Part shown: in pieces, positions 33,901 to 62,820 of the stretch | Layout of the letters: each line of letters opens with the position of its first letter | How positions within the stretch are numbered: the stretch's first letter is position 1 | Assembly: GCA_964658305.1 (NCBI GenBank) | Contig: OZ210885.1 | Location: forward strand, 5,704,001-5,768,000 | Length of the DNA: 64,000 nucleotides | Source of the DNA: Leptogorgia sarmentosa | Taxonomy: Eukaryota | Reading direction: 5' to 3' | Notes under the pieces: model-generated | The model's input: the letters and a program-made list of their open reading frames with translations, nothing else | The model's database searches: none | Told to the model about the DNA's origin: nothing | Program-made: the position numbers and the translations under genes

Positions 33901-34112
33901 TTCAATAATTTATTGTCTGTATTGTTCACAAATCTGCATAAATGGTCTCATCAGTCATCAGCCACTATTACTTCCTAGCGTATAAAAAATCCGGGAAAAT
34001 AGTAAGTTAGTGTGCAATAAATAAAATGTTCATTTACCAACCCAACACATTTTGCAAACCTTCGTTCTGACCTCAGACCGACATCGGATTGCTCTTCACT
34101 TCGTGCTCGGTG

Positions 34113-36186
34113 CTAACGTCTCGGTCCCGACGTTGGGCGACGGTTTATCACAGGGAAAAACTCCTTCAATCTTTCGCGTGTTTTCCAATCACCAGGACTC
34201 TCTCTGATGATTTGATGAACTACAAGCGGCAGTGTAGGAAACTTCTGACAAAAATATTCGTCGATGGAGGTAACGCTACCCGTAGCTCCCAATGGTCGAG
34301 GTTTATCACCCCAATGTTGACGGAGGTTTCTCATGAGTCGAAGACAGTGGGTATAACGGTTACCATTAAATTTTGATGGAGTCGATCCACCATCACAAAG
34401 CGCAGTGAATTCTGGATTGATAACTGCTTTCCAATCATTTGGTAACAATGGATTTCGAGGTTTTAATGGATCAGAGGCGTCCAGCTGATTCGAAACATCG
34501 CAGTTGGGATGTTTCGTGGGATTCTTGATCTCAGGTTGATTGCCTATAGCTTCTAAGAATCTCATCTGTTCTTCGGTTGAGAGAAAGTAGGGGTGCTTTA
34601 AGGCTTGCTCCACATACGGTCGTTTTTTTAGGTCCTTAGCCAACATCTGGGAGAGCAGATCTTTGACCACAGGATCACTGAGCTCACTTAATCCTACTGG
34701 TTTGTCATCATGTAAATTTATCAGTCGATGTATTTCAGCGCCAAAAGGATGCTTTCCTTTTGTCAAGATGTAGAATGCCAGCATACCTGCCACTTGGATA
34801 TCTGATGCTTCTTTGCACTTGAGCTGTACTGATGCATCTGATGGGCCTCTCACCTCATCGGAGTATAATTTAGCCCAGTCAATGCATTCATGTGCAATCC
34901 AGTCTTTTGATCCACATTCGCTATAAGTATTATAGGTACTTGCACCTGGAAAGGAGAAAAAGCCGTTTAAAATTGCTCTTACGATTTCCGGTTTTTCTTT
35001 TTGGAGTGAATTAGCGGATTCACCAAATGCGATGAGTACAATTTCCACATCTAAACATCCATGTATAGTTCTCCTTAACAACATTCTCACGAACGCACGT
35101 ATCAGATCACGTAAAATTCTCATATAATTATATAATTTATATAATTATATCATAGCTTAATTCCCAAAAGACTTATGTTTACAATCAATTCTGCGAGGAA
35201 TGCGATTTTCACCAATATTTTTTATCCAACTCGTATTTGCTCATTTTGCCCGATTTTGTACAAAACGTATGTCATTCGACAGCTACAAACCTGATTTTTT
35301 TTAATATCAACAAATTACGTATAGTTATCAAGCAATTTTCACACAGTAACTTGCCAAAGATGGGCTCGGTTTTTTTGAGATACCCTGTATATATGTAGCT
35401 ATTAAGCAAACTGCCAAATACCTGTTTATGCTATTCTTATCACTTATGTGTGGTATCTTTAGGGGAAATATTTGTGTGATGTTTAGAACTTGAGATAATA
35501 CCTTGTTCTGGGAAAAAGCGTCCAATTCCAAAATCAGACAAAACTAAATCACCATTCACATCAATAAGTATATTAGTAGGCTTTAAGTCTCGGTGTAAAA
35601 TCCTAGGCTCTCTACTATGTAACGCTTTCAGCCCTTCCAACACTTGGCTTATCATTTTTCGAGCACGGGGTTCTGTTATGAAATCACCTTCTTTCTCAAC
35701 AAACTCTTCAAGATTTTGCTCATATAAATTCAGAATCAAGTAACCAAAACCAGGGTCGGATCTGTCATCATAGAAGTGATAATTTACAACTCGTGGTGAC
35801 TCGACAACATTGGGCGAAGTCAAAATATCTCGCTCGTTCTTCAGCAATTTACAAACGTCTTTTGGCAAACGTTTTATCGCACGTTCTATGCCATCTGATC
35901 CTAAGCAAACATACACCTTCGTGCCATAACTACCACTGCCGATTACGAAGTCTTCTCGAAAACATACGCCGTTGTCGTTAATGATAGTAATTTTCCAATC
36001 CTTATTTAGGTGCTCGTTTTTCGCTTGGGATCTCCACACATTTGAAAGAAGTTCGAATTTTTTTCTGTGCTTCACGGAGACTTTTTTCCGATCTTTGGGT
36101 CTCATGGCTACGATACGTATATTATTGTCATTCAAAACTCTTCGACTATTGATAAACGTCGTTGAAACGGGTGCAGTTTTATTCAT
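34113..36186 (-). CDS. IRE1/RNase L-family kinase-KEN endoribonuclease, copy 2 (2 coding exons, 505 aa)
   Basis: Exons 36186-35502 and 34945-34113, phase 1. Same kinase and KEN motifs as copy 1 and near-identical sequence. An in-frame TGA lies about 25 codons upstream of the ATG. Confidence 0.9.
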
Positions 36187-37189
36187 GTTAGTGTGGGTTG
36201 AAGGGTTCCGGCACTGCCAGGTCTTCTTATTCCTGCTATGTTGAAAATTCCTCTTCGTTCACACAAATTTATCCCAATTGCATTGGTTTCTCTACTTTCT
36301 TCGAGTTCAAAGAAATGACAACTTCCTGGGAAACTGACAATTAAAGTGCTCTTTGCTAGTTGTGATGATGAACAGGAACGTGAGAATGAACCTAGCTAAT
36401 TCATTGGCGTCGCTACTAGTTGATGAAGCAAAACAAATCTGTGGCCACAAAAGTATTATTATTAGGCCTATAGCAGTATTTTTAGCTAGCTAGCAGGAAC
36501 GAAAACCTGCTGTGGTTGCAACACACTATGCAACCTCAAACTACTCTTCACGCTAGGAAAACTGTTGTTATTTGTGCATATATAAAATACAGAACAATGG
36601 ACACTCCGAAAAAGGTTTTCATTTTGATTCTTCATAAAATTACTTAGTGGTAACCGTAATTTGTGCATATATCAAAAAGATCTTTATGTTCGTCGGTATA
36701 ACTTATTGTTTTCGACAATATTTTGTTAACTCCGACACTGTTAGTACCCTTGTAACATTTCAGTGATATTGCATGCGTGCTTAACAGGGATTATCAATAA
36801 CGCTAACAGGTGGTCATGGCAAAAAAAAAAAACAAAGCATGATTTTTCATCGTCATTTCTTCGTTATTTCCCTTGAAATCTTGTCTGCATGCATGGTGGT
36901 TCCACTACGGCACATTCCAACATTTCCTAATGTTTAGAACACTAACAGGTTGCTCACCCAGCTAGAGGGTCGCCAGTTACTATCTTGACTATATGATAGA
37001 AAGGATGAAATAATACGCATATATACTGTAAGCCTGGTGCAACATTTGTTTAGGGGGACATACATGTAATCTGCAATCTGTGCAAGAAAATGAAATTTAT
37101 ACAACAAATTTTCGCGATTCTTTTGTGCTTTTCCTTGCTCACAAGCTAGCATTCATTACTCACATCATTACCTTCTGGTTCATTCATAG

Positions 37190-37510
37190 GATGAATTTAT
37201 CATCCGTCTCGAGACAGGGCTGAACAATGTCCCTTTTTTGAAGGCCCCAGATGTCCTCACGTACCACGTGCGTCAAAAACATGAGAAGAGTTTTCTCCAA
37301 AGAGTTTCAGATTTCTTCTTAACAAGTCGAACAGACGACGTGTTGGACGGAAGCAAGGAGAGTAATAAAAACGAACTTGAAACGGAGTTGAAGTTTCTGG
37401 ATTATCAGGTGGAAAAGGCGCTTGAAGTGAAGTTGGAAAATCTCCATTCGAAGTTACAACGCGAGCTCGGCGCAATCCGTGATGGGTTGAAAAAGTTGGA
37501 AAAACAATAG
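37190..37510 (+). pseudogene. Orphan terminal coding exon with a C-terminal coiled coil (possibly the tail of a TRP-type channel or other membrane protein)
   Basis: ttcatag|GAT acceptor, then 106 open codons DEFIIRLETGL...VEKALEVKLENLHSKLQRELGAIRDGLKKLEKQ* with heptad character. No upstream partner exons found. Family assignment is tentative. Confidence 0.45.
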
Positions 37511-38808
37511 CGAAGTTAAAGTGAATTAAACGATCAAGAATTTGACGTTTAGTGACAAAAAATCTGGTTGAGCGGCGCGGAGGATAGAAGGATTGTGGCC
37601 GTCAATCTCACTTATATATAAACATTGTTGTATTAGCAGAATCATATTAGTATACTATTACAAACGCTGAAATTTCATTGGCTGCTGCACTCGCTATCGA
37701 ATAAATAATTTGAACAGATTGTCGATGAGCGCGATCCCCAATTGTCACGTGATCATCATTTAAAATCGGACTCTTACTTTTAGAAGTCGCAAGCCACAAT
37801 TTGCAGTTTTTTGTCTTTTTGGGATATCTTATTGAAATTCTACTGAAACATTTGGCAAACCAAACGTTTTTCGCCGTCATGTTGTATTGTATTTGCTGCT
37901 ATAGTAGGCTATATTTGTATTTGGTTTATATAATATTAGATAGCGAGCACCATAACAAGTGGATTTTTGTCAAAGGAAATGTTCCTGGCCCGCGGTTTAA
38001 ATAATTTTGAATTGTGCAATATTTCATAATTATTTGATCTCTGATTATCCAGGAGTTCTTTTGATTTCCGTGGATAATAAAAACGTATATCCAAAATTCC
38101 GGCGCAAACTTAAGTCTGTATTTGATATAAATACTGACTGTATTTTCCGTTTACGATATTTCCAAGACAGGTGATGTACTTTATTTGAAAGCACTAGTCA
38201 CTAGACTAGGTACTCTTTCTGGTGTTTCTTTAGAACTCCCTGAATGAATGAATTGAATTCTCATCAACTTTCATCTTTGTTTTTTCCGGACTTTAAATCA
38301 AGAATAAAAATCTGCAAACGTGGCAAGTGAAGGTAAGGGATCAAAACAATAAACAGCAAATAAGATACAATACAATATTATAAGATTCGATGTTCCTAAA
38401 AACCTTTCGAGCGCTAGACGTCTTGAAGCGTTCCTCGTCCCCAAGCCCCGAGGATTCCAAACGTCGAATCCTATTGTATACATTATACAATATAAGATTC
38501 GTTATATATATATTTACGTATATAAAAACATTAATATAATAATTATACATGTTTACGTAGTGAGTAAAAGTGAGTAAAACCTTCGCTGTTGTTTGCTCTT
38601 AATCAATATTTCAATAACAAATTAGTGAAGGACGCTGTTCAAGTTTTTGTTTTAGTATATAATGCAAAACAGCACGCAGACTTAAGTGTTAAACCATTTC
38701 TAAAGTGCACATTAGATGGCAGCTGCCAATCATACTGTATTTGTACATGTGCGGATGCATGGGCGTACGGGCCGGGGGGGGGCACAGCCTCCTAAACGTT
38801 TCACTGTC

Positions 38809-39024
38809 GGGCAAGTGGGCAAGTGGGCAAGTGGGCAAGTGGGCAAATGGGCAAGTGGGCAAGTGGGCAAATGGGCAAGTGGGCAAGTGGGCAAGTGGGC
38901 AAGTGGGCAAGTGGGCAAGTGGGCAAGTGGGCAAGTGGGCAAGTGGGCAAGTGGGCAAGTGGGCAAGTGGGCAAGTGGGCAAGTGGGCAAGTGGGCAAGT
39001 GGGCAAGTGGGCAAGTGAGCAAGT
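38809..39024. repeat. (GGGCAAGT)x27 tandem repeat
   Basis: Read directly; three units carry single substitutions. Confidence 0.97.
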
Positions 39025-39573
39025 GTCGTTCGGGAAAACATAATTCCATCATAGTTGATAAAATATTAACTTTATTAGACAATATAACATGAATAATACG
39101 ATGAAAATCATTATCCTCTAAAACATCCTATAAGTTATGAAGTATTCCAATTCCAAAAGCACAAGTATTTCAGATCGAATATGTATTACACAACGAAAGA
39201 GGTATAACATGAGACCTAGAAAATGCCATTTTCGACGATCTAGAGACCCGAAATTTTCAAAATATTCACGCTCGGCGCCAACCCCGGTGGCGCCTCGTGA
39301 GCTTCATTCCCCCAGTATTTGTCAGCTTCCCACTTCAAATTTGGTTCCGTCAGCTTTGTGAGGCAAACGATGATTTGTCGACCACCCAAACAAGACAGGG
39401 CAAACAAAGCGTGGTTTCCCAAACTCGTGTGCAAATTTAAATCCTTAATAAGTGCATATATTTTTCGCTTCATTGATTATTATAGTGATCGTGCGGGAAT
39501 ACAGCAACCACCAAAGTGACAGCATAAGATTTAGGTCGTGCATGCTCTTTCAGTATTCAAATTCAGCGACAAA

Positions 39574-42500
39574 ATGTCGAAGCTTTTCAATCGTTGGCTC
39601 TCTGTTTTTGGAATATGTTTACTGGTGGTTGAAAGTAAGTGTAATCCGCTATAGTATATTATTTAGTACAGCAACAATACAATATCTCATTACGCAAATT
39701 GCCCACGAATACCGATTATAGGTACTCAAATACATGTTTATCAGCTTTCATTGATAGACGTTATAGTTTGTATGTATCCATTGTTTGAACATCAATAGCT
39801 GGGTTTTTTAAAGAAATGCTGATAGCATAGTTAATTAGTTACAGCGGAATAACAATCTTGTTTGATCCCATATATAATAGAAACAGGACTATTAATAATT
39901 TGATCAAATATCGAACATACTTGAGTAGTTGGCGCAAAGACACGCAAACTATATAATACACAAACTGTGAATATTTAGGTTTCAAAATAACAGATTACTA
40001 CCTTCACTATATCTCAAAATCTAGAACCCGTATCCTAATCCTGACCCTAACCCTGACCCTAACCCTAAGCCTCAACCTAATCTTTTTCCAAACTCTGGTG
40101 CTAACGCATTCATATATCGTATTTAAAAATAGGAGAGTTGAGGCTCGTTTCGGCCCTGTTTACCTTGAAACATTTATGATATGTTTTACATGTCGTTTCC
40201 GGACTTACCGCATATCGAAATTGACCACAATTTCAATTCAGGGATTAAAATAAGAAGCGACGTGCATTACCGAGGTAAAATACATAAACAAACAAGACCC
40301 TTGTAACTATTGATCATATCATAATTGAGGTAGCTACATATATAATGAGTCACATGACTTCTACTTTAGTTGTGTTAAGAGCAAAGAAAAAGTTTATGTT
40401 AAAATATTGAGACAAATTGAAACAGGTTAAAAATTAATTTTTGTGGTCGTAATAAATATACCTGATGGGCTTTGCCAGCACGTTCTACATCCTTCATGCA
40501 AAACACTACAACTTCAGAAATATCTACATTTCTTTCGTTTCAACATTTGTCGCCATTTTGAAAGCTCTGACAATGACAATGTTTATCGCGTACGGATGGT
40601 ATGTGGGGCTTTACGAAGTGAAAATGGTCTTTCTTTTCTTGTTCATGCTGATAATGTGCACAGTTGTATAATTAAACATTATCACTAATTTCTACGGTAT
40701 ACGTATTTTCAATACTGAGTACTTCTTCTCTATTAATTTGATATACGTATAATCTCTAGCTACCATCATGGACTGATACTTTTTAGAAATAATCTAATTG
40801 ATTCGTCATTTTTGCTCTTATTTTCATGTGGACCAGGAAGTGACCCACTGAACAAACCGACTAGCATACGAAGTAACGTTAGAGAATACATTCAAAGAGT
40901 TCCACAGAACCAATGTTGATAACGTTAAAGCCGTTTGCATCAACTAGAGAAAACCTCCCATTGATCTTACTAATGTTAAATGGCGTTACAGTCTCTTGCG
41001 CGATATACAGCCTTTGTTTACAAATACACTTTATCTTTTTGTGTAACTCGTTGAATAAACAGTTTTTACCACAAGGACCAGCATTTAAAAGATTTACAAT
41101 TGACGTAACTTCTATAAATCATGCAAGTTTGATGTTCTCAACTGAGAAAGGCTGCCAAACTGAAGCGTGGTCCACAATTGTTTAAATTTTTGAGACATGC
41201 TCACAAGTAACTGTAACCTGTCTTTAATTTTAAAAAGTATGTGCTTTTATAAGCTGCCAGCCATTTCATAGTCTCGAACGACAGTTTACCCAAACCCTCC
41301 ATTAAAGAAGTGCACGTTTCGCCCCTGATTCGATTGCAAAATAATCCCTTGTTATCCTTATTTTCTACTTTGAAAGTCAGTACAATGAGATACAGTGAAA
41401 GCAACAATCTTTTTTCATATCGAAAAATAAAGCTACGCAGCTAAAATCTTCCCTCATGCAGGACGTTAAAACTCACAAAGCTTACTAGATCTAGTATGAT
41501 ATTAGATACATGCATGGCGTTTGGGACCTTCTAATATTTAGTAATAAATTATGTCTAAAAAATTAATCAAATATTTTTTAAATATAAAATATACTCGAAT
41601 ACAACACTCATATAACAAATTAGTGACACCAAACCTCACTCAAATCTATTGATTTACGTCGTTGTGTTTAGGTTGTCAAAGTTTTTTCCTGAGGCATACT
41701 CAGACTGGAAAGTGTATCACAGTATCGGAAGAACTCGTGTACAACTTCCCAGACCATGCATTTCCTTACTTTGTTGTTATGACTGACAACTGCTTGGACG
41801 AAAAATCACAATTTCGTTATCTTAACAGTGAACTTTTACACAATATTGAAAAGGAGGGCACGCTGGTGTATTCATCAACATCTACCTATCGCGCTCGTTG
41901 GGCTCTATACAAAGCTGTATCATTAAACGGAAAACGTTATCAAAACGATGCACAACATCGTTTGAAACAGACCGATGGGGGATCTTTATTCTTTTACAAG
42001 AGAGACGACCGTGTTTGTGCGGAACCTTCGTCACAGTATTTATTAGGGAAGACGTACTGTGACAGAGCAAACCAAACCTTTACTTTCGGTAAGTGGAATG
42101 TTCAGGAAAAATTCTAAAATTTTGTAAAAGTATTGAGAGATACTGGAAACCTTTTAAATGTAGCTAATAACTGATAATTAACAAGCTTTTGCTATCCTAC
42201 TAGCAACCCATCATGACGGACGATATATCAACTATAGCCATACGAGAAATACGGTAGAGGATTTACAGTCCACATCGGCAGCGTAGGCATGGGCGTACCG
42301 GGCGGGGGGGCGGCAGCCCCCCCCAGTTTGTTGGGCAAACAAGGCCAGTCGGACAATATTCGCCTCACAGTCGGGTAAATGATTGTCGTACACACTGATA
42401 TTACATGATAAATTAACTTGTGAATGTATTATGTATACGTATTAATTAAATTTAACGGGAATATGAGTATCAATTACAAAATAAAAGTCGGACAATTTTC

Positions 42501-45500
42501 TAGATAGCCGGGCAAATTGCCGAACGCCCCCCTGAAAAATGTTGGCCGGTACGCCCATGAGCGTAGGTAGCACTTCAGGATAACGAACAACAGCAGGTCG
42601 CGCACATTTATATACTTTAATTTGAAAAGTAACGTGCGAATAAATAACAGAATCATTTGATATTTCCCATTGAAGTCAAGGTGGACTGTAAATCGGACGA
42701 AGGCCCTTCGGTCGAAACGTCGAATTTGTTTTATCGTTTAGGTAGTGAGATTATTCTTCCTGCTCTTGTTCTGTTATTTGAAACTGTTTTTTTCTGTGCG
42801 CGACATAAACATTAAAACCGATAAACGCAGGATATACTTTGAACAAGAAAAGTGTGTATTTGTCCGAAAAACGCTAAATTTGGTCACTTGAGATCAACAT
42901 AATTTTCCATAGCAGTAATGGTGGATTTAACCATCCATCGTTTTGAAATGTTAGTATGCGATGAAAATGCATGGGTTCAGGAGATCATTCTGATGGTAAG
43001 GCTAATTCTGTTTTTCAGGCTCAGTGACGGCTTTCAACGCTTCAATGGAAAATGTTAGTTGCTCTCCAGTACAACATATGGTGGTGAAAAGTGCGGATTG
43101 TGGAGATTTTAATGTGCAAGGCAACTTTAATGACGACAAAAATATTGATACACAATGCAGCCAACTTGCCAATTGTCAGGTGAAATCTCTTTGTGGCGGG
43201 AAAACATCTTGCGAGCTGACAATGAACAACGCTCTATTGGCATCAAAATATCGCTCTGATAGCTCAAAACAAATATATACCAAGTACACTTGTGTGGATA
43301 GCTACAACTCTTCCGCTATAACTACAGGTAATAATTGTACTGGGGTCACTGGGTACCGATAGATTATTCATTTCCCCTGTTCTATTACAACTAATTACTG
43401 GTTGTTTAAATAGCTTCAGTCACGACTAACTTAGAATAGATAGGGTTGGTTATCCGGCTGTAGCTTAAAATTTACACTGTGTGAGTGTGACCTAAGTAAT
43501 TTTGACCACATGCTTTTGTAAGGTGAAATACCCCCCCCCCCTTCCATGCAATCTCGTGGCTCAGCTAATTCCCCTGTACGGCATAAAGTCTGATTTTTAA
43601 CGTTTTAGCTCCCAATATTAGACTGACAAGCCAAAGCCAAGGACTCATTGAAATAAAAGATGGTTCAGCTTGGAGGAAAGTTGTTGAAACTGGCTGGGAT
43701 AGGATTCGTCAGAAAATGCTGTGTCAGCACTTGGGATTTGAAGAAACTAGTGAAAATAGAATTGAAACTTTATCATTAAAATCTCAGACTACACAAATAA
43801 AGATTGCCACTGGGGACCTGATATGCTATAACAAACAATTGAATGGAACATCCTGTTGCGTCCATCTTGAACCTTCAACAGCCACAACAATTGCTATGGC
43901 TCCATATGTGACGTGTAAGTAGGCATACACAAACTGATAACAAATATAGTTATAGAATGCCAAAAATGTTCATTGTTTTAAATTATTTCAGTTAAGTTTA
44001 CGATTTACAAACTGAAACTGAAACATATGAATTGCCGCGTACGTTGTAATTGTAACAATTTAACAGTACTTCATGCTGCTAGAATATAGTTGCATTTATT
44101 CGGGATCATAGTTACATTCTTGGTTAGTTCCCTTTCAATGGAAAATACTCGGTTCTCGATACTCTAGCGCATGCATGTTTACTATTATTGAATTAATTTT
44201 CATAAAACTTAACATATAGAATCTGATTATTTTTACCGCAAACAAAGTCGAAGCTATAGATTATAATTATGTACGCGTACATATATTAGAAAAGTATTAC
44301 CTAAAATATAAAAATCCTTCAAAACAAGGGGAAATACACTGATCTCTTTTTCATCCTCACAACAGGCCAAATATGTAACAGCCCACTACTCCAAAACGAA
44401 AATACGTTTCCCGACTCCGCGTTTTCTGGCAGTGGTGATTCAAGTAATAAATACAAAGACGCGAGGATTACTAAAAGTGGCTGGTGTCCATCTGGGTCTG
44501 GTAGTGCATACCTCTTGCTTGATCTCCAGAAAGAATATCACATTACTCAAGTTGTGGTTATGGCTAACAAGGAACAAACAAAATGGAGCGGCTCATATTC
44601 CATAAACTACAGCGTTGATACTTCTTATAAAAATTCTGCGCAGGTATATATAAGTTTTGGAAATAATTGGAATTTAAAAAAAAACCCCGCCTCTTGGAAA
44701 CATTCAGATGATCTCGTATTCGTGTTTCAGCCAATCAGCGCTCAGAAAGGGTTGCCCGAATAGAAATCCATTTTGCTATATTCACACGATTACGTATATC
44801 TTTCGTCATTCTGTACGAAACAAGTTGAAATTTTGTAATTATGTTTGGTTATGAGAACTATACTCTGACTATAATATGGAATCGAAATAAAGTATATTAT
44901 GAGAGATATTCAGTTGTTTCGGTCGAAAAATGGATTTCTATTTGACAGCTAGTCCCAGTACTTTTCCGTGTATCGAGATCACCTGGATAGTTTAACTTAT
45001 GTAATTTTGGGGATACATATGATTTGAAGATTTCAATAAAGAAAAGTTGAAGAGTAACAATTTTTTTCTCTTTTTCAGATTTCGGGAAACCTGGACGGTT
45101 ACCAAGCATCAAGAACAAGCCTAAATATTTATAATGTTCGTCACGTGAAGTTAGCATCCACTGGGAACAGAAACTTTTGTCTAAGAGTAGAATTCTGTGG
45201 AGAGGGTATGACTTTGATTATCCTGTTTCTATGAAGGTTTTCCAGAAAAATTTTAGATTGTAGCATGCGCCCTTGGGATGACGCAACAACGTGTAGAGCC
45301 CTCCCCTATTTTCAGCTTCGAAGAGGTCGCCCCCCCCCCAAAAAAAAAGTCCTGGATTTCAAGTCCCTGGTACATTTAATGCCTTATTCATAAAATCATA
45401 AGTCATTTGATTATCAATGCACTGTATTTAGTTCAAAGGCCAGCTCCAGTGTCCAATATCATCGTTTCACCATCCCAGTACGTTGCACGTTTGACGTGGG

Positions 45501-48500
45501 AAATATCCACATCCAGTGAGGATTCCAGCTTCATAACACAGATCGTCATATATCTTAACAACAAGGAACTCCAGACTATATCCCGCGGAACTGAATTTAC
45601 TCTTGATGGACTTTCATCGAACACTTGGTATACTGTGGGAATACAAACTAAAGATGGTTCTTCACAAAAGAGTCAAATAGTTAAAAATACCTTCATGACC
45701 AGAAAAGGAGGTAAAAATATAGACATCTCTCATGCAAAAAGATCGCACCTGTGTTAGAAATAGTCAATATAATTATCGTTTGATTTGCTAGTCTCTTAAA
45801 TCAGCCGTTGAACAAAGACCTCAATGGGTAGTACCCAATATTTCTCAATTGAGAACACGGGTAATGCCCACGCTGGACTATCGCCTAAGATTGCTGGTCG
45901 GCGTTTCGGTATTACTCTTGATATAGTTATATTAGTGTTAGATGTAAACCATTTTTCTATATACTAAGAATTTCCTTAATCCCAACCCAAGCCCTAGAAT
46001 CCTAACCCTGACCATTGTGATCAGAAAAATATTGAAGAAAAAAAATTTTCATCACTAACGCTGAAAAAATGTGTCCAACTTGGGCTTGAACTATGGAACT
46101 GTAACGCACGCACCGCGTGCCTTACCATTTGAGCTAAATCGAGCCCGCTGCTCTCCACTCTGGCCTGGCTTAATGCATATGATTATAGACCCGGGCAATC
46201 ACTGTTCATAATTTACCAGGCCAGGCTACTTAGACGATAGTCCAGCGTGGGAATTACCCATGTTTTCAATTGAGAAATATCGGGTACTACCCGTTGAGGT
46301 ATTTGTTTAACGGGTGCTTAAATAACCTCACATTATCGCAACAATTGACTGAGATGAGAGCATAAAGTAAAAGCTACCCAGCGAGTGGTTGGATTATGAA
46401 TTATATATTATGTACGCCTGGCTCATCAGAGGTAATGGCAGATACGTGAAATGTACAAAAAAAATTAAACATAAACTTCCTCTTCTTCATTGTAGTCTCT
46501 ACCGGACCTCCGTTGAAGGTTACCTTAACATCACGAGGGAAAAACACACTGCACGTTTCTTGGGAAGCTCCACAAACGCTCAATGGCGAACTGAAAGGAT
46601 ATCAAGTTTGCTATTCTGCCCTAGAAAGCTCAAGTAGCGGTAATTGCAGTGAGCCAACTGAGTCATTTTCATACACCATCTCTCCACTTCTACCATCCAC
46701 AAAGTACACCGTAACGGTTTCGGCTGTTACAAGTGCTGGTTTGGGGCCGAAGAGTTCGAAAGTCAGTAAAATAACAAATGGAGGTGAATATTGATCTTAT
46801 TATTGTAGTGCTCAGCGGTAATACGTTAAGGACTACCCATGAGACATTTCGGGGGAAATACAGTCAAAATCTTTACGATCTGAGCGTTTATTTTGATTTA
46901 TTATAGGATTTTTACAATAATAAGTTTTGATTTTCTACTGCTTCCGAAAGACATTACAGTCAGGACCGGATTTAGGGGTGGGGCCAAGCCCCCCTCCCCC
47001 CCCCCTCCTCCACCCACCCACCACCAAAAGGTGGCCATGCACTCACCAAATCGGTTGACCTTTATAATTATACTGTATAAAAGAAAGTCTGTGACATGTT
47101 TGTGCTCTGCATCTAGAGCAGTGGAGTAGGCCACCCATATAGTTTTTTCGCTTTATCATTATTACGGCAAAATTCCAATACCACAGAACAAAAGTATTCC
47201 ACATTGAATACCAATTAATCAACGAAAGAGGTATATGAGACCTCGAAAATGCCATTTCCGGCCATCTAGAGATCCCAAATTCCAAAGATTGGTTTTTATT
47301 TTTTAGAGCCAATTAAATTCGTTGCAACGCTATATTACAGTCTCATTTTAAATATACCGAAACAAGAAGATTATATCAGGTACGTGTTACTCCAATGATG
47401 CAATACTTGGAGATTGCTAGGTTCAAATAAAAAACACACGTGATATGGTATGGGAGAGTAAAGCCCGAGTACCGAAGCTGTTAGCCAGATACAGCCGAGG
47501 CTCGAGGGTTTAACTGAATTTTTATATGATTGACAAGATTTTCTCTAGAAAAAAGTTTGAAATACGCTATGCACATATGAGAGTAGCTATGTGTTTGATT
47601 TTCTTGTGTTTCTATGATTGAATTAGGTGCGTCCTTATAAATCCACGGGCTTTATACAGATAAATCCCGTGAATTTATAAACAGATATTTATGCTATATA
47701 CAGGTCTATGAATAACAAAGAAAACCGCGTCAATCATAATATAATAAAGTAAGGTTGAACTTCGGCACTTGCTATATAAATATAACAATATAACATGTTA
47801 CTTTTCAGAGATGTGTTGATAATTGTTCAAAGTGCTACGAACAATCCAACATCAAGTGGTAACCTGAGGACAAGCAATCTTAAACCTTATCAAAAAAATA
47901 TCAAAGATCCGTACGTTACTGCTTATTTGAAAGCGAATGATTTACCCCGCACGTTTGTGATCGGCGATGGCAAGAAGTATAATTCAGAAAAAGAAACATA
48001 TCTGAACCGGCTGTTAAGACAGAACTCCAATTATATTGTCTTTGTCAGATTTCTTGAAAATGAGGTACTGTAAATGACTTTAGAAATATATGTTATTTAC
48101 CGCCTGGGAGGTCCGGATAGAAAAATATTTTGTCGAGGTCTCGATATATATTGCATTTTTTGCCATTAAAACAAAAATAAAAAAAAAATTTATATACTTC
48201 GGCCATTACTTATTTATAATTCCGAACTGTGGTCAAGATGACATAAAATTCCGGCCGCTGCAGCAGCCAATCAGATTGCAGAAAACGCTAGGAGTCCGCC
48301 TGCTGCTGATTTACAAAAAAATAAATGGACAATATTTTCTAATTTTGCTACGTTCCAAATAATGTGCTACATTGCTTCATTTCAATATGAAACTGATCTC
48401 ATTCGAGACTGGATAATGACAAAGTTAATTATATGATCATGACTTTTGTATTTTCGTCCAGGATTCCTATTACTCTACAGAATGGAGTGGACATGTTAAA

Positions 48501-49806
48501 ACAAAAATACTGGCTCCAGGTAAATCATTTTCTTGGTGGTTTATTTATTCTGTTCATGAAATCAAAATACCGTTGAGAAAATGTTGGGATGAACAAGTAA
48601 TATTCTGAATTCTTGTATTATAGACGGTCAAGATGCGAAGCAATCCAGTTGTGACAAAATCCAAATAGATCTCCTGATTCCTCTGGTTATTTTTGTTCTT
48701 TGTTTTCTGCTGTCACTTGGTGTAATCATATATCAACGTCGTCTCATTCAAAATTTTAAAAATATATCTCGTCGCGGGTACGAGGTTCCACAACAGGCAG
48801 AGGCAGAGCAAATGATTAAATCCAGTAGGTATTTAATTCATTCAGTTAAGTTATTCTATTAACGTTCAATTAAATTTGTTAATTTGTCAACAGTATTCTG
48901 TGGTACATGAAAACGCAAATCCTAAAATATATCTTGCTTCTTGATCTACAACCTACCTCTTGTTTAAACTGGTTGCAAGACATTTTTATTTTAATATTCA
49001 GTCTTTGGGTTAGAACTTAGAAGTAATATTAATCAGGGAGAAATGCATAAACATGGCACGGGTTCTAAAACTCAGCCTCAAACGAAATGGCCTTTTGGGA
49101 CCTGCCCGTTCCAGAATCCTTCGGTTGATGAACATTTGTTTGGCCAAAAAGCACACAAAAGAGTCATGTTTCATCTAGTATATAAGATACTTCTCAAATC
49201 ATAATTCTCAGGGACCGCGAAAGATCGATAATTGAGGGGGGGGGGCTCATATTCATATATTCGTGTTAACAGACCTTGACAACAATTGATTTGAAAAGAA
49301 ATAAGTGATGGAAAACAAGAATATATAAATACTAGCTCTCTTTCCCCCCAATTATTGATCTTCCGTGGTCGCTGAGTTCAACCCATGACAGTCTGTTGTA
49401 TATTGCATGTCCGCTAAGATTATCTGCAGCGCTGTACGTTTCCTGTAGGTGTGCTGACAATGATAACTAATTATCAATGATCAAAATACAAGAGATGCAC
49501 CAACACTTTTATAATTCCATTCCAGCTCTGGAAGGTAACAACAAAACTGTGAAAGCCGTCAAAGCCGCTACCGGCAGTGATTTGTACATGAATGATGAAT
49601 ATGAATCACCTGACTGCTTTGCTAAAGAGAAGAAGCAAAATGAAACTGAATCTCAACAACATCTTTCTGCTGCAGAAGAATCCTCGACCTACATGTCTTT
49701 GAAAAACCGCAAAGATCCTGAGAACGTTTATCAATCGCTACAATACCCCAATATTCAGACCGTGGAGTATGAAAATCCCACATTTGCGTCCAAAGGGCAA
49801 ATGTAG
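39574..49806 (+). CDS. Type I multi-lectin transmembrane receptor (beta-trefoil, SUEL lectin, SRCR, F5/8C, 2xFN3, RPTP-like juxtamembrane domain, TM, Tyr-motif tail); 13 exons, 977 aa
   Basis: Exons 39574-39634 (signal peptide), 41672-42088, 43019-43327, 43609-43914, 44366-44643, 45079-45205, 45432-45710, 46496-46783, 47307-47379, 47809-48064, 48462-48519, 48624-48824 (TM LLIPLVIFVLCFLLSLGVIIY followed by QRR), 49526-49806. All GT-AG, phases consistent, 2934 nt. Domains recognised by motif, e.g. IRL..G.IEI..W..W..LCQHLGF, CGGKTSC..KYTC, W.P..LDL..LRVEFCG and FVIGDGK.Y..Y.N..L. Confidence 0.85.
42288..42559. mobile_element. hAT-like MITE, 8-bp TSD AGCGTAGG
   Basis: agcgtagg|catgggcgtaccgg ... 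ccggtacgcccatg|agcgtagg. A related left end occurs at 38758. Confidence 0.88.
44704..44986. mobile_element. MITE with 2-bp TSD (AT); second copy at 62541-62820
   Basis: TIR cagatgatctcgta / tatcgagatcacctg; the two copies align over their full length. Confidence 0.85.
45802..46316. mobile_element. Non-autonomous DNA transposon with ~80-bp TIRs and 7-bp TSD (P-element-like), tRNA-derived interior
   Basis: cttaaat|cagccgttgaacaaagacctc ... tttgtttaacgggtg|cttaaat. Confidence 0.88.
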
Positions 49807-51277
49807 ATTCAACAAAAGCCTCTAGTCGAAGATGATTTTGTAGTGACTGGAAATTTTGCTGCATGTAGAGTGGCCAGAGTGCAATTTCCTCGAATATTTG
49901 TAAGCGGGTTTATAACCACACATCTTTATTTATATTTTAACGAGGGCCGTAGAGTGTTAATTGGGGAGAGGGTGCCTATGCATATATTCCTGTTCTGGGT
50001 TAGGGTTTTTATCAAAATCTGTTTTTTTTAAATAAAGGAAATCTGTCGGGGAGAACATGAGTACATACGAGCACCTTCCCCCCCCCCCCCCCCAACCCCC
50101 CTATTAGCGTTCTAGCTACCGCCCTGATTGTGACAATTTTAAGGATTTGCAAAAATGCATGAATTAGCCTATAGCATTTAATACCATTTTACTCCATATT
50201 ATAATTAACTTTGTTGGGAACTGACGGAACAGATAAGACATTTGCTTTAATTAAATTACGTAATGGGGTATCATATAACATTTAGGGATGGGTATAACTA
50301 AGGGAGACTGGTGAAAATGAGCACACTTTTGCACAGGTGTGAGGCTTAGCGAGACTGAGACAGCGAACGAGCAATGTGATTACTTTAAACTCTATATTAT
50401 TAAATAAAATTGGAAAACGTATTGTGACTTGTCAAGGACTACAGTTTACGGAGGCAAACATTCTCGACAAACTTAACCGCGCGTATTTAATACTTTTTAG
50501 GCACAACATAATCATGAGTGAAATACACACATTAGAGTGAAAGCGAAAAAGTTACAAATAGTGTAGGTATTTTGGTACATGCATATCTATGTTGGATATT
50601 TGTATTGTTGAAAAACAGTTACATTGTATTTCTTCATATTAACGTTATTAGCCTACATGTAGTTCTTTGAAAATGCTGTGGAAATGATCCAATAGCATAG
50701 ATATTTCTCTGAAAACATTACGTATAGTTTGTATTGAAAAATAAATTCTTTTTTTTTCATTTTTCATTTCATTTTTTTCATTTTTCTCTTGTAGCTACGT
50801 ATATAGTCTACCTGATTTTGAAAATACAAATGACATTTCATTCATTGAAAAATAATGATAGTATAAGTTATAATATATATAATATATAATAATATATATT
50901 TAACAATTAGACAACGAGGCCGAGTTGTCTATGAGCGAATAGTTTTGATTTAATTCAAGAGTTTTGAATTATTCATATGAGGAATAATTCCCCATATCCT
51001 ACGAAGACCGAATTCAATAATTGTTTAATTATTTATTTGTATATAGCGCTTGCAAAAACACGCAATTTTGCAAAAACACGCAATTGCAAGGTACTGGAAA
51101 TAAACAAAAATTAAATCAAACAAATTTATTTCAACTCAATATATTAAACGTTTGGAAGAACCTTTCCTTTGAGGAAGCCATTTGTATTTTCCACTATTTT
51201 TCCGCTTTTGGCATATGCAGAATAAATTAGTCGACGTCATAATGTCGTATAATTTTCATTATTACATACACAAGCGC

Positions 51278-52203: not shown

Positions 52204-55200
52204 ATGGATCCCTATTTGTTCAAGACGATTCTCATTATATTGTTGTGCCTAGGTTACACATCGTACTCAGTTGAAGGTAAATGATATATTTGTATACTTG
52301 TATGATTGCTATTTGATTGCTGTGTTTACAATGTAACAAATTTCGTCCACAAGGTCAAAGGCCGTACTTCAATGTTTTCTCTAGGATTTAATAATTCAAT
52401 AGATATTTATACTTTCATTACTTTCCACCGTGTTAAAATACATACCATCCGCATACATGCGCATGTGTCGGCGTTTACGCCTCATCAATGCAGCTTTGTA
52501 TACGTGTAATTACGTGATAACTCGACATTTAACCATATAAGAGTGCTCACAGACAGCAGACGCACATGTCACAACACCGAGACATTAAAACATCCACACA
52601 TGCGCAGAGAGTTGTGGGTGCTCAAACAACCTATACAGTGCTCTCACTTCTAAGGATTTTTCCTCAGAAATAGGAATTTAGCAAAGTTTTAAGGATTTTT
52701 TAAGGAATTCAATTTTTAAGGAATTTTCTAAGGAATTTTAATATTTCGAGAAAAGCCACTCTCTCCAGTAAATTCTTTAGCTCAGTGAGAAAAGCCTTTG
52801 GTAAAATGCCCTGAGCTAAAGAATTACTAATTAATAATAAGGTAATTCTTTATCTTAGTGGTAAAATGCCTGTGAAACACATGTCACAGCAAACTAAAAT
52901 TTAAAAAATGGTGATTATAGTTAATTTACATAATTATAGTTTCTGATAAATTGCGCGAATGTGCGCTTCCGGTCCGGCTTAGGAGATGATAAGTCGCTCA
53001 TTCTATCCCATTTTATCTTGTATATACTTTAGTAAGCTCAGGTACCTCACAAATTGTGTTTATTAACGATTTTGAAACTATTTGAGACTTTGAGTCTTGT
53101 TTTTAAAACAAGAGGCAAAAGAACGGGATTGCAGGGTACTTTGGGGGTAGTTGCAAGGATAAACAAGTCATTTAAGGAATTTTGGGAATATCTGAGGAAT
53201 TCCGGAGCTCACGCTAAGGAATTTTGAAAATTCGTTGTGAGAGCGCTGAACCTATACTTAATTACTTATAATTATTATAAAGCTGATTGAAAAAATGTTG
53301 TTGTTCCATAACCTTAAACGATAAACTATGAGCGTGCAAGGGATGCCGGTTGTCGCTCATTCAAACTTCAAAGCCGTTGAAGTGGACAAATCAAGCTTAG
53401 TAAAAATACTAGCCTCATATTTTTCCATATTCATAATATGTCGCAATGTAAAATGCCCTTGGTTTGTGGCTCTACATAGAAATTAACCAGGTTCCCTTCC
53501 ACGCTCATATAATGCAGTTGTGACAAGTTTTTTATACAATATCAATAGGTCTTATAAAACAGACATGCAATCTCATCATATGAAGTCCCTCCCCAGCCGT
53601 TGAACAAAGACCTCAACGGGTAGTACCCAATATTTCTCAATTGAGAACACGGGTAATGCCCACGCTGGACTATCGCCTAAGCTTGCTGGTCGGCGTTTCA
53701 GTATTACTCTTGATATAGTTATATTGGTGTTAGATATAAACCATTTTCCTATATACTAAGAATTTCCTTAATCCCAACCCAAACCCTAGAATCCTAACCC
53801 TGACCATTGTGGTCAGAAAAATATTGAAGAAAAAAAAGTTTTCATCACTAACGCTGAAAAAATGTGTCGAACTGGGGCTTGAACTATCAAACTGCAACGC
53901 ACGCACCGCGTGGCTTACCACTTGAGCTAAATCGGGCTCGCTGCTCACCACTCTGGCCTGGCTAAATGCATTTGATTATAGACCCGGGCAATCACTGTTC
54001 ATAATTTACCAGGCCAGGCTACTTAGACGATAGTCCAGCGTGGGCATTACCCATGTTCTCATTTGAGAAATATCGGGTACTACCCGTTGAGGTCTTTGTT
54101 TAACGGGTGCCCTCCCGCCTGAATGCCAATCTAAATCTAATGTACCGTCAGTACTAAAAATAAAGTGTCAAATGTCACAGCAGTGTTTAAGGTTTTGGTG
54201 GACAACCGTTTTTGAAACAGTTGTATACTGTGTGGTTATGAACTCTAGGATGTTTTTATTTCTTGGTGGGTTGGCAAACATCAATGTGTGGCAATTGTAG
54301 GTAGCATATACGGCCAGTTCTACTCACAACCTAAACGATACGATATAAAATTTGACGTTTCGATCGAGGAAAGGACTTTCGTCGAGATTTAAATGAAATG
54401 CTGGATCTTGTATCGTTCAAGTAGTAGGTGGAACTTTTGCTGCGCGTCGGTAACAAATCGACCAACTCACGCATTTAATGTAAAGCGTTGTCATGAATTT
54501 TGCAAACACTGTTTATTAGAAATATTTATCAGTTACATACCTACCACGAGCTAGCTAGGGGCAGGGAAAATTAATTTTTCTCCAATACCCCAAGATGCAG
54601 GTATGTAACTGATATATTATACCAAACAAAAATACATCTTTTCACATGCAAATAAGCACAAGAAAATGTGATCTTTAATTTATGCGAGCAATATAGGGAA
54701 GTTCGAGCGGGATATTACAAAGTCGAATACCATGCCCCGGAGAAAAACGAAGGGTATAAAGTTCCCATAGCATGATATTCGCTAAAAATGTTGCGGACAC
54801 GTGGTACAAATGTAAGCTTTTGATTGGACAATGTGAATGTGAGGTATAATAATGTACATATATAATGTATCGAGTTACAAAAAGTAATTTTGCGGATTTC
54901 GTAGCGCAACTCTGTAGAAAATGTAAAAATTCTAAAATCAGAAGTTGTTACAAATCGGTTAATGAAATACTAGTGGAATTGACGGTGTGATTATGCCCCA
55001 GATTTTTGCAGCCGCAAACACAAAGTAGCTACCTAAGTTTGCAGTAAAGCAAAGCTGGCCTTTGTACCGCGCGAGTCAATTTTGATGTTTAAAGATGAAG
55101 AGCGTCTGCCGGTATAATTGCGGCCATATTGGTCTTACAAAATCTTTCTTATCGCGATACGAAGCTGAGAGATCAAACAAAGATGGTTTATCTTTACAGT

Positions 55201-58200
55201 CAAAAGCTGTCATGATCCTGGTACACCATGGAAAGGTGGAAAGATAGGAGAGCTGCAAATTGGAGAAACGCTCTATTTTTCTTGCCCTCCATGTCACCAG
55301 CTCAGAGGTAGCGCAACAAGAACATGTTTATCTAATTTGACTTGGTCTGGTCATCAACCAACATGCACGGGTAAGTTCTGTGATTTCAATTTCCTCGAAA
55401 TTCGATTCAGTATAGAAAATCGAAAGACCACTGTAATTCTAAGACCTAATACCCCAAACACCGTGGCTTTCATTCTCACTGGATTGTATACTTGTTTTCC
55501 GGCTAAGGTGAAAATCAGCTTTGTTACAATGTCTGTTTACAACTTTTGTTATTAAAGCTTGTTTGTATCATTATGAGGGATGTTCTACATAAATATTTGC
55601 AAGTGGACAAACGTTTTTAGCAAGCGTGGTCAAGAAATTACTGAATTATGCACGTTATTTTACTTCGCGATTAATTCTGTCAGTGTGCGCTGTATGCTTA
55701 CGTTTAACACTACAGACTATAAAAAAAAAACACGCCCAGCGCCTGCCGTCAGTTTGATAAAGTATAGGAAGAAAAAAATTTCGTCATAAAAGTCATCTTT
55801 ATAACCAAACCGGAACATTGTTCATTTTACTCGTATATGTCTTGCAAAAGACGTTTTCGGGTTATTTAGGCGTATTTTGCAGCTCTCTACAACACCCTAG
55901 AAATGGAAGAATGATTGGATATTCGAGATTCTGTTCGGGCACAAGAACAAAGTTTGAGTGTTTCCCCGGTTACCAGTTGATTGGCTCAAGGAGAATAACT
56001 TGTCAAAGTAACGGAAAGTGGTCTGCAGCGATTCCAACCTGTGTCGGTAAATTAGTAAACATTACTTAATGCTTTTCGTTCAAAAATATTAAGATATTCA
56101 TAATCTATTCAGCTGTCGAATGTAGTTTACTTCAAAATCCAACCAACGGTTATCTAACCTCCAATTCACGACAGTATGATAGCGTTGTACAATATCGCTG
56201 TGACGATGGTTACCAGTTAAATGGATCGCCTCACAGACATTGTCAGAGAAATGGCACGTGGACTGGTAACGACCCAGCCTGTGAAAGTAAGATAAAGATT
56301 ACTGAAGGAAACTTATTTGGCTTATTTTACTTCAGCATAATTAATTGCGTAACGCTTAAAGCCATTATTACTGCAGTTAAAAGCTGTCAAGATCCTGGCA
56401 CACCATGGAGAGGTAGCAAGAATGGAAATCTGCAAGTTGGACAAACGCTGTATTTTTCATGCGCTCAGTGCTACCGGATCAGAGGCAGCTCAACTAGAAC
56501 TTGTTTATCTAATCTAATGTGGTCTGGTCGTCGGCCAACTTGTGCTGGTAAGTTCCATTTGGTTGTAATTTCTGATCCCAGTAAGTCGATAAATGCTGTC
56601 CAGAGGGCTAAACTACAATATTGTCCAGTATAGGCAGAGGACCACCCGTTAAACAAAGACCTCAACGGGTAGTACCCGATATTTCTCAATTGAGAACATG
56701 GGTAATGCCCACGCTGGACTATCGTCTAAGTAGCCTGGCCTGGTAAATTATGAACAGTGATTGCCCGGGTCTATAATCATATGCATTTAGCCAGGCCAGA
56801 GTGGTGAGCAGCGAGCTCGATTTAGCTCAAGCGGTCTTTGTTCAACGGCTGAGAGGACAACAACACCAAATGAGAACAAATGTCGTACTTAACGAAATTA
56901 AACGTCGCATCTTTGTATAGTTGTATCGTTTATGTAGTGAGTAAATTTTGATGCCTTCTCACTTTCCAGCCGTCTTCTATTTCAGATTTGTTTAGATTTT
57001 TGAACGGCTTGTTTTTATTCTGACACACTTTTGACGGTTTTGTTTTGTGTTATTTCCTCTCTGTGTTTAGAATTCACCTATATCCCCCCCCCCCCCCCCT
57101 CCAACGCTTTTTTACCTGTTCCAATATAAATCCTTAAATCAGATTTGAGAGTATAGGACAAAACAAAGTTGAGAAAATATCAGCTTGATAAATTCCATTA
57201 TATGGAAGAATATAATTTAAGTTTGTAAATCCAGTTGTGCATGAGACTAAACAGTTATCGGTGTGAGTATTATATACTATGTTGTTTCCATATCCTACTG
57301 ACAAGAACACAAACAATTTTGTAAAAAGGTCTCACTAGTGGCACACCGTCCCCATAATCAAAGATGTATCGAAATTTTACATGGCAAAACTGAATTTGAA
57401 GAAGGGGGGTGAGGGCCGAGGGGAGAAGTGTTACAACAACTTCTGTCCAACATTGTAGATCTTGACCTAATTCATTTTTCACATAGCCTTGCAGAAATGT
57501 GTATGCTCCTCTGGGCATTAATTAGGTTAATCAGAGAACAACATGATCATTATCAAGCAACAAAATTTCCCGTAAGTGTATAAAACGACCGCGTCAGTTA
57601 AATGGCAACTGGCAGTGCGCACAGCTACAAACATAGTGTAATCAAGGTTACACTCTATACGTCTTAGATATACAGTTGGACATTTGTTGTACTAAACAGC
57701 ACAGAGTACAAAACAATACAGAGGTGCCATGTTATATAGTCTGGACATAAATTAATTTTAGATCTTTTTCAGAAATGAAGTATCCCATGGGCGAAACTTT
57801 ACGAAATCAATTCCAGGTTTTATTAAAATGTTTTATTTAGCTGTGAGATGCGGTACTTTACGACACCCTAGAAATGGAAGAATTGTTTCTCATTCGAGTT
57901 ACTGTGGTGGAAAACCAACACAGTTTATTTGTTACGCTGGTTATCAGCTAGTGGGCTCAAGAAGGATAACTTGTCAGAGTAATGGAAAATGGTCTGCAGC
58001 GATTCCAACCTGCGTCGGTAGGTTTTAAAGTGCCTATACCGCGAAATTTTCACCAACATTTCGTTGATCGCATTGTAGTGACGACTCAAAATGTCTTATA
58101 GCTTCTCTGGTAGAATTTTTAAAACGCTCTTTCCTGTTGAATCATGATATTCAAGTTCATCGATCAATAGAATATAACCAAAAAACATAAAACAATTTTT

Positions 58201-62540: not shown

Positions 62541-62820
62541 CCAGATGATCTCGTACTCGTGTTTCAGCCAATCAGCGCTCAGAAAGGGTTGTCCGAATAG
62601 AAATCCATTTTGCTATATTCACACGATTATATCTTTCGTTATTCTGTACGAAACTACTTGAAATTTTGTAAATATGTTTGGTTATGAGAACTATAGCTCT
62701 GACAAAAATTTGGAATCGAAATAAAGTATATTACGGGATATATTCAGTTGTTTCGGTCGGAAAATGGATTTCTATTTGACAGCTAGTCCCAGTCCTTTTC
62801 CGTGTATCCAGATCACCTGG
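62541..62820. mobile_element. MITE with 2-bp TSD (AC), same family as 44704-44986
   Basis: ac|ccagatgatctcg ... gatcacctgg|ac. Confidence 0.85.

What the first reader, a model, noticed from the sequence alone, without database searches (positions are those of the whole stretch)
39574..49806. Four different recognition modules on an RPTP-type stalk, with an ITAM-like tail instead of a phosphatase
Seen: a clean 13-exon model of signal peptide, beta-trefoil (ricin B-like), SUEL/rhamnose-type lectin, SRCR, F5/8C, 2 FN3, the FVIGDGK.Y..Y.N..L...Y..F.R..Y..WS juxtamembrane domain typical of receptor tyrosine phosphatases, TM, and a ~120-aa non-catalytic tail ending at a stop. The domain exons are mostly bounded by phase-1 introns, consistent with exon shuffling. 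I do not recognise this architecture from a named family. Inference: a glycan/pattern-recognition receptor (immunity, phagocytosis, symbiont or allorecognition) built on an RPTP chassis.
Basis: partly seen in the sequence, partly recalled or inferred. Interest (0 to 1): 0.8.

Follow-up and report, generated by a model that had tools for sequence, protein, structure and literature searches.

The report
Soft-coral paired receptor with ITAM tail
This gene, whose named relatives are all from soft corals, encodes a surface receptor with four recognition-type domains on a receptor-phosphatase stalk and a conserved immune-activation (ITAM) motif in place of the phosphatase; its relatives include close pairs ending in either this tail or a phosphatase, likely on/off receptor pairs.

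Summary
The gene model is real: 13 exons, 977 aa, 9 of 12 introns phase 1. The domains hold up: beta-trefoil (model pLDDT 97, Z 15.6), SUEL, SRCR, F5/8C, two FN3, a PTPRU-type membrane-proximal domain, TM and a 123-aa tail. The window holds no phosphatase exon. Assembled contigs join several exons, and an intron-free full-length relative also stops after the tail.

The gene is not a one-off. Relatives in Dendronephthya and Paramuricea carry the same ectodomain with one of two ends: this TM and tail (YExP, YMSL-x9-YQSL, YENPxF; 11 of 19 proteins) or another TM with tandem phosphatase domains (7 of 19). In Dendronephthya three ITAM-type and three phosphatase-type proteins form sister pairs, 78-86% identical outside the cell, apparently on one contig. 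A single phosphatase clade is rejected (p-AU 5e-7).

Best reading: the activating arm of a paired-receptor family whose opposing arm is itself a phosphatase. Ligand, Syk/Shark binding and opposition are untested, sugar binding is doubtful, and this gene's own phosphatase sister was not found. Ten literature searches found no description.

The parts
39574..39634 (+). Exon 1, coding part: signal peptide (aa 1-20)
   Evidence: Hydrophobic N-terminus, same start in relatives. Contigs X4 record 10 and X6 record 24 carry 140 and 137 letters before exon 2, and the depth in bin 39300-39680 fits these letters lying there (inferred).
41672..42088 (+). Exon 2: beta-trefoil domain (aa 21-159)
   Evidence: Model from 56 sequences, pLDDT 97.4; Foldseek hits are R-type lectin and trefoil domains; best Z 15.6, rmsd 2.0 over 112 residues; Atlas 0.94. 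No meaningful Pfam hit.
43019..43327 (+). Exon 3: SUEL/rhamnose-binding-lectin-type domain, degenerate (aa 160-262)
   Evidence: Pfam 1e-3, below cut-off; relatives at 64-73% identity score 8e-7 to 5e-8; CSL3 E 0.006. Exon 2-3 joint in X6 record 24.
43609..43914 (+). Exon 4: SRCR domain (aa 263-364)
   Evidence: Pfam PF00530 2e-8, above cut-off.
44366..44643 (+). Exon 5: F5/8 type C domain, first part (aa 365-457)
   Evidence: Pfam PF00754 2e-7, above cut-off.
45079..45205 (+). Exon 6: F5/8 type C domain, second part (aa 458-499)
   Evidence: X5 record 21 matches exons 5 and 7 with no differences and has 129 letters between them, the length the model predicts; 80% DNA identity to L001.
45432..45710 (+). 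Exon 7: FN3 a (aa 500-592)
   Evidence: Pfam fn3 2.5e-5, just below cut-off; exon 7-8 joint in X6 record 26.
46496..46783 (+). Exon 8: FN3 b (aa 593-688)
   Evidence: Pfam fn3 2e-18.
47307..47379 (+). Exon 9: start of the PTPRU-type membrane-proximal FN3 domain (aa 689-712)
   Evidence: Aligns in frame with relatives, 55-60% over exons 9-11.
47809..48064 (+). Exon 10: core of the membrane-proximal domain with FVIGDGK (aa 713-798)
   Evidence: No Pfam hit alone; relative P0006 passes PF23144 Fn3_PTPRU; Atlas 0.93, 195 shared features.
48462..48519 (+). Exon 11: end of the membrane-proximal domain (aa 799-817)
   Evidence: STEWS motif aligns with relatives.
48624..48824 (+). Exon 12: transmembrane helix (about aa 834-854, no charged residue) and start of tail
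   Evidence: Hydropathy; 71-90% identical to the TM of four ITAM-type relatives; no D/E/K/R in any of 12 aligned TMs.
49526..49806 (+). Exon 13, coding part: tail with Y910 (YESP), ITAM Y940-x9-Y953 and Y966 (YENPTF); stop codon
   Evidence: Y910 12 of 12, Y940 11 of 12, Y953 12 of 12, Y966 9 of 12 aligned tails. The intron-free relative L001 stops after the same motifs.

Best explanation
The gene encodes a single-pass receptor with an RPTP-derived ectodomain and a conserved ITAM-bearing tail, and is likely the activating arm of an octocoral paired-receptor family whose likely opposing arm carries a close copy of the ectodomain on a tyrosine phosphatase. Inferred mechanism: a multivalent surface ligand (microbe, damaged cell or neighbouring colony) clusters the receptor; a Src-family kinase phosphorylates the tail; the ITAM (Y940/Y953) recruits a tandem-SH2 kinase of the Syk/Shark type; YESP and YENPTF recruit SH2 or PTB adaptors for uptake. 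The phosphatase sister, engaging a similar ligand, would erase the signal without needing an ITIM or SHP. Recombination at phase-1 introns would swap a TM-tail cassette onto different ectodomains and keep sisters alike. Shown: architecture, motif conservation, two tail types, sister pairing in Dendronephthya. Inferred: ligand, kinase, opposition, co-expression, and a sister for this gene.
For: Of 19 proteins from three searches, 11 have this TM type, 7 have another TM plus phosphatase, 1 is partial. Six of the 7 keep the D1 motif HCSAGVGRTG. The ITAM is in register in 11 of 12 aligned tails while most of the tail varies; 0.8% of 20,000 shuffles of the tail give the pattern. Three ITAM/phosphatase sister pairs at 100/100 support, and a phosphatase clade is rejected, p-AU 5.5e-7. 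Pair identity outside the cell is 85.6%, 80.6% and 77.6%; P0011 follows its phosphatase sister at 91-96% over aa 201-600, against 57-82% for the two other paralogues compared, and after about aa 1040 aligns with the ITAM-type P0012 at 85-91%. All six have the same longest-contig length, and five have near-consecutive accessions. An intron-free 884-aa relative ends after the tail. Syk and Shark homologues are reported in Hydractinia and Hydra (10.1101/2022.03.04.482883, passages).
Against: No binding, signalling or co-expression data. No phosphatase sister was found for this gene: none in the window, no genome held, and its nearest row in the tree is an ITAM-type protein. In Paramuricea the two phosphatase forms in the concatenated tree group with each other; cross-type pairing there appears only in single-domain trees. 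The beta-trefoil does not follow the pairing: P0016 is closest to P0019, both phosphatases, at 83%. Phosphatase-type proteins are genome annotations; I saw no transcript joining this ectodomain to a phosphatase. The 12 tails are not independent (P0006/P0101 are isoforms, P0007/P0081 near-copies); P0012, dropped by my TM pattern, has YQAF in the second half, and P0005 has lost the first tyrosine. YMSL and YQSL also fit YxxPhi sorting signals and STYMSL fits an ITIM. Receptor phosphatases can also prime Src kinases (recalled). Tandem genes homogenise without selection.
Confidence: 0.55

Rival explanations
1. A stand-alone engulfment or scavenging receptor working like Draper/MEGF10. Its likeness to phosphatase genes is a by-product of unequal crossing-over in a tandem cluster, with no functional pairing.
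For: ITAM plus an NPxF motif resembles the ITAM plus NPxY of Draper and Megf10 (PMC8092387, passages). Several ITAM-type genes (P0005, P0009, P0010) lie on other contigs with no sampled phosphatase sister.
Against: Three separate 1:1 cross-type pairs, each fully supported, on what appears to be one contig. No EMI/EGF domains.
Confidence: 0.2
2. A decoy, co-receptor or substrate of the phosphatase sisters. It competes for their ligand or assembles with them, and the tail tyrosines serve sorting and endocytosis; or the phosphatase primes Src and the two cooperate.
For: Some ITAM-type members keep the whole phosphatase-type ectodomain, including its RRRKRE basic site. The TM is more conserved (71-90%) than most other parts, which may reflect a partner. 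YENPTF resembles an endocytic PTB-binding motif (recalled).
Against: The spacing of exactly nine residues between the two YxxL halves is kept across two named species and unnamed relatives; sorting signals do not need fixed spacing (inference).
Confidence: 0.15
3. A cell-adhesion or developmental receptor with protein ligands and no immune role.
For: FN3 hits are to Dscam, Robo, contactins and LAR-type phosphatases; the SUEL sugar motifs are degenerate.
Against: Many paralogues with mosaic, shuffled domains are more typical of host-defence families (inference).
Confidence: 0.07
4. A decaying copy or a modelling artefact: a truncated phosphatase gene with a chance terminal exon.
For: This copy alone among 17 SUEL rows has lost one cysteine and gained another. 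The joint of exons 12 and 13 was not shown for this copy (output was cut).
Against: Open frame over 13 exons; contigs with no differences cover exons 2, 3, 4, 5, 7, 8 and 10 in runs X4/X5; the tail is conserved in relatives and present in intron-free L001.
Confidence: 0.03

Closest known systems
[quoted passage not shown]
   Same: Linked genes, closely similar ectodomains, different cytoplasmic outputs, signs of sequence exchange (definition from PMC13358205, passages).
   Different: There the inhibitory member has ITIMs and recruits SHP phosphatases, and the activating member borrows DAP12. Here one member has its own ITAM and an uncharged TM, the other is itself a tandem-domain phosphatase, and the ectodomain is neither Ig nor C-type lectin. 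Opposition is untested.
Receptor tyrosine phosphatases R2A/R2B/R4 (PTPRS/F, PTPRU/T/K/M, PTPRA/E)
   Same: FN3 stalk and PTPRU-type membrane-proximal domain; the sisters' D1-D2 region is closest to PTPRS, PTPRF, PTPRA and PTPRE.
   Different: This gene has no phosphatase domain and a different TM; the family has trefoil-SUEL-SRCR-F5/8C in place of Ig or MAM domains.
Draper / CED-1 / MEGF10 engulfment receptors
   Same: Single-pass receptor with an ITAM and an NPx-aromatic motif in the tail.
   Different: No EMI or EGF/NIM domains; NPxF and not NPxY, placed after the ITAM.
Hydractinia Alr family; Botryllus FF/FcoR
   Same: Clustered invertebrate receptor families with ITAM- or ITIM-type tails and exon shuffling.
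   Different: Those are Ig-superfamily proteins; in the passages read, no member carries its own phosphatase.

Membership tests
Receptor protein tyrosine phosphatase | Cytoplasmic PTP domain(s) in the same polypeptide | tested here: not met
   Stop at 49806; no PTP-like exon in the window; intron-free relative L001 stops after the tail.
Receptor protein tyrosine phosphatase | FN3 stalk with RPTP-type membrane-proximal domain and one TM | tested here: met
   fn3 hits; PF23144 above cut-off in relative P0006, 60% identical; Atlas 0.93. The window's exon 10 alone has no Pfam hit.
ITAM-bearing receptor | Yxx[IL]-x6-9-Yxx[LI] in the cytoplasmic tail, conserved | tested here: met
   Y940-x9-Y953; in register in 11 of 12 aligned tails; consensus.
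ITAM-bearing receptor | Phosphorylation and binding of Syk/Shark tandem SH2 domains | not testable with these tools
   Needs experiment; octocoral Syk/Shark were not searched.
Paired receptors | Closely similar ectodomains with different cytoplasmic outputs | tested here: met
   Met for three Dendronephthya pairs; for the window gene itself no sister was found.
Paired receptors | Close genetic linkage | tested here: inconclusive
   Same longest-contig length and near-consecutive accessions; the DNA itself was not available.
Paired receptors | Inhibitory member signals through ITIMs; activating member through an adaptor such as DAP12 | tested here: not met
   Sister carries PTP D1-D2; this TM has no charged residue and the tail has its own ITAM.
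Paired receptors | Opposing function on a shared ligand | not testable with these tools
   Needs experiment.
Paired receptors | Gene conversion between partners | tested here: inconclusive
   Protein-level mosaic with a switch near aa 1040 of P0011; no DNA-level test.
Draper/CED-1/MEGF10 | EMI plus EGF/NIM ectodomain | tested here: not met
   No such Pfam hit in the exons or relatives scanned.
Draper/CED-1/MEGF10 | NPxY motif | tested here: not met
   The motif is YENPTF, i.e. NPxF.
R-type (ricin B-like) lectin domain | Beta-trefoil fold | tested here: met
R-type (ricin B-like) lectin domain | Sugar-binding site residues | not tested
   7-17% identity to solved trefoils; sites were not mapped on the model; the sequence has no QxW repeat (motif recalled).
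Rhamnose-binding lectin (SUEL) | DPC and KYL ligand motifs (role recalled) | tested here: not met
   CSL3's DPC and KYL align with KYR and KQI.
Hydractinia Alr | V-set/I-set Ig-like ectodomain | tested here: not met
   All ectodomain exons are assigned to other folds.

The most novel reading that the evidence does not exclude
Octocorals have a clustered, recombining paired-receptor system in which each ITAM receptor has a twin whose inhibitory output is a built-in tyrosine phosphatase, so no ITIM or SHP is needed; it is a candidate for their microbe-sorting or allorecognition locus and shows one route from an RPTP to an immunoreceptor.
Probability: 0.35. Interest if true: 0.85.

Novelty: new variant of a known kind. 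Interest (0 to 1): 0.7.

Why it matters
Activating/inhibitory receptor pairs are described mainly from vertebrates, with ITIM-based inhibition, and more recently from Botryllus and Hydractinia. A pair built from an ITAM tail and a whole receptor phosphatase would be a different solution, in a cnidarian class with few known immune receptors. The 1:1 pairs make the idea directly testable by tail swaps, SH2 pull-downs and single-cell co-expression. Databases hide the family: several ITAM-type members are named phosphatase-like or DSCAM although they have no phosphatase domain.

Tried and rejected
No genome is held for the window, so no search for this gene's sister. First last-exon acceptor (49449) gave a stop and was dropped. 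Sequence searches of solved structures with exon 10, exon 2 and the exon-2 profile gave only chance hits. The first fold of exon 2 with six sequences failed (pLDDT 40). The run search listed no holder on record as RNA; this says nothing on expression. Contig depths were not used as copy number. The joints of exons 3-4, 4-5, 8-9, 9-10 and 12-13 are not in the part that was shown. Continuation into downstream phosphatase exons was rejected within the window: the next coding exons on + are sushi repeats from 55169. Earlier findings of this scan: none. Literature: ten searches listed no paper on this family; the library lacks most subscription journals, and I read no supplements, where domain tables of octocoral genome papers could list it. 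The wide VIA fold search was not run. No complex prediction was run, as no direct binding is claimed.
Full report
Observation. The region 39574-49806 holds 13 coding exons on the + strand that splice through GT-AG introns to a 977-aa frame. The order is signal peptide, beta-trefoil, SUEL, SRCR, F5/8C (two exons), FN3, FN3, membrane-proximal domain (three exons), TM, 123-aa tail. Nine of 12 introns are phase 1 and the other three lie inside domains. Pfam passes SRCR, F5/8C and the second FN3; the first FN3 and SUEL are below cut-off; exon 2, exon 10 and the tail have no meaningful hit.

Domain calls that Pfam missed. Exon 2 was folded twice. With six sequences the model failed (pLDDT 40). With 55 of the 61 hits of a whole-library search added it reached pLDDT 97.4. 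Foldseek's hits are trefoils such as GalNAc-T lectin domains, actinohivin, CBM13 and the mannose-receptor cysteine-rich domain; the second aligner gives Z 15.6, rmsd 2.0 over 112 residues, with many tied rows. The fold is secure, the function is not. The FVIGDGK domain of relative P0006, 60% identical to exons 9-11, passes Pfam Fn3_PTPRU and has that family as best Atlas hit (0.93). The SUEL domain aligns with CSL3 (E 0.006) but replaces its DPC and KYL motifs (their role in rhamnose binding is recalled), so rhamnose binding is doubtful.

Splicing. Four runs were laid on 39300-50700. Contigs of X4-X6 behave as spliced sequence: X6 record 24 joins exon 2 to 3, X6 record 26 joins 7 to 8, and X5 record 21 links exons 5 and 7 with the 129 letters that exon 6 predicts. 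Some contigs match this copy exactly; others differ by up to about 5%, so alleles or close paralogues exist. A 3047-base contig from another source, L001, encodes an intron-free 884-aa relative with the same order less one FN3, a stop after the tail and about 340 bases beyond; it matches ten window exons at 67-85%. No phosphatase exon lies in the window.

A family with two ends. Three searches returned 19 proteins; all 18 named ones are from Paramuricea clavata or Dendronephthya gigantea, which places the window in octocorals by inference. Eleven have this gene's TM type (one, P0008, is a chimeric model with a cut tail), seven have another TM followed by phosphatase domains (six with the intact D1 motif; P0017 is truncated), and one is partial. 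A further protein, P0083, has the distal ectodomain with a third TM and two ITAM-like motifs. The 61 unnamed hits do not settle whether the family is confined to octocorals.

The tail. In 12 aligned tails (P0012 dropped by my TM pattern, P0083 of another type, P0008 left out; two rows are near-duplicates) the conserved islands are YExP (Y910, 12 of 12), YMSL-x9-YQ[SAP]L (Y940 11 of 12, Y953 12 of 12) and Y[EQ]NPxF (Y966, 9 of 12); three other tyrosines are kept in 1, 3 and 5 of 12. The middle motif fits the ITAM consensus used for Hydractinia Alr proteins (10.1101/2022.03.04.482883, passages). It arises in 0.8% of 20,000 shuffles, but the pattern was chosen after seeing the sequence, so conservation is the stronger evidence. 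The first half also fits an ITIM in some members and both halves fit sorting signals.

Pairing. Single-domain trees put ITAM-type and phosphatase-type proteins side by side. A tree of SUEL, SRCR, F5/8C and FN3a for the 14 proteins with all four (P0003, P0006, P0008, P0014, P0015 and P0017 left out) gives P0011-P0018, P0012-P0016 and P0013-P0019 each at 100/100 and rejects one phosphatase clade (p-AU 5.5e-7, LG+G4). The group was defined by tail type, though I had seen the single-domain trees first. The pairs are 85.6%, 80.6% and 77.6% identical over 858-1050 aa. P0011 keeps the whole phosphatase-type ectodomain, then switches near aa 1040 to an FN3-stalk-TM-tail cassette 85-91% identical to that of P0012. 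The three phosphatases are distinct genes (77-89% identical in the catalytic region). All six share one longest-contig length and five have near-consecutive accessions, which suggests a cluster. Against a tidy picture: the trefoil does not follow the pairs, the two Paramuricea phosphatases in the concatenated tree group together, and the window protein's nearest row is ITAM-type P0007.

Mechanism. The best-supported reading is an activating receptor: ligand clustering, Src-family phosphorylation, Syk/Shark binding at the ITAM and adaptor binding at the two other tyrosines, as in the writer-reader-eraser scheme for Draper and Megf10 (PMC8092387, passages). The phosphatase sister would be the eraser brought by a similar ligand. 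All of these steps are inferred. Rivals are a stand-alone engulfment receptor, a decoy or cooperating partner of the phosphatases, an adhesion receptor, and a decaying copy.

Comparison and novelty. The gene is not an RPTP, not a Draper homologue and not an Alr. The family meets the sequence criteria for paired receptors (PMC13358205, passages) but not their ITIM/adaptor mechanism. Passages read in surveys of cnidarian scavenger receptors, pattern-recognition receptors and immunity (PMC5119243, PMC8260672, PMC7563517) have no occurrence of ITAM and show no such architecture; the Botryllus paper (PMC12582321, passages) describes Ig-type pairs. Ten searches of the held library found no description; subscription papers and supplements were not seen. 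Verdict: a real, conserved, apparently undescribed family; new variant of a known kind; interest 0.7.

Noticed in passing
window 27123-37133, - strand: A tandem duplication at about 90% identity holding two two-exon genes for a kinase plus Ribonuc_2-5A (KEN) domain, RNase L/IRE1-like (ORFs 28864-31110 and 34113-36258). No ankyrin or TM domain in the frames scanned; kinase motifs look intact.
   Followed up: partly
window about 4865-23200 (mostly -) and 55169-62468 (+): Sushi/CCP-repeat exons on both sides, 74-85% alike in inverted orientation; two exons at the left gene's far end may be galactose-binding or fucolectin-like (weak Pfam hit; otherwise recalled).
   Followed up: partly
window 43099-43101 and 43252-43254: This copy's SUEL domain has Cys187 where relatives have Tyr, and Arg237 where all 16 other rows have Cys. 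Other contigs of X4-X6 have the Cys codon at 43252, while X5 record 19 matches the window.
   Followed up: partly
window 44705-44987 and 45802-46317: Intronic repeats with copies at 62542-62821 (93%) and 53594-54110 (95%), very deep in run X1; probably small non-autonomous transposons.
   Followed up: no
window 38808-39025: Tandem array of a 9-base unit about 0.55 kb upstream of the start codon.
   Followed up: no
window 37190-37510, + strand: A 106-aa frame with a coiled-coil-like end and no Pfam hit; it looks like the last exon of a TRP-type channel gene (recalled).
   Followed up: no
P0083 (Dendronephthya LOC114533438): Same distal ectodomain with a third TM and a tail with two ITAM-like motifs, spacers 10 and 9.
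   Followed up: partly
P0010, P0014, P0004: Family members with repeated ectodomain blocks, e.g. two trefoil-SUEL-SRCR-F5/8C sets in P0010; may be real shuffling or fused models.
   Followed up: no
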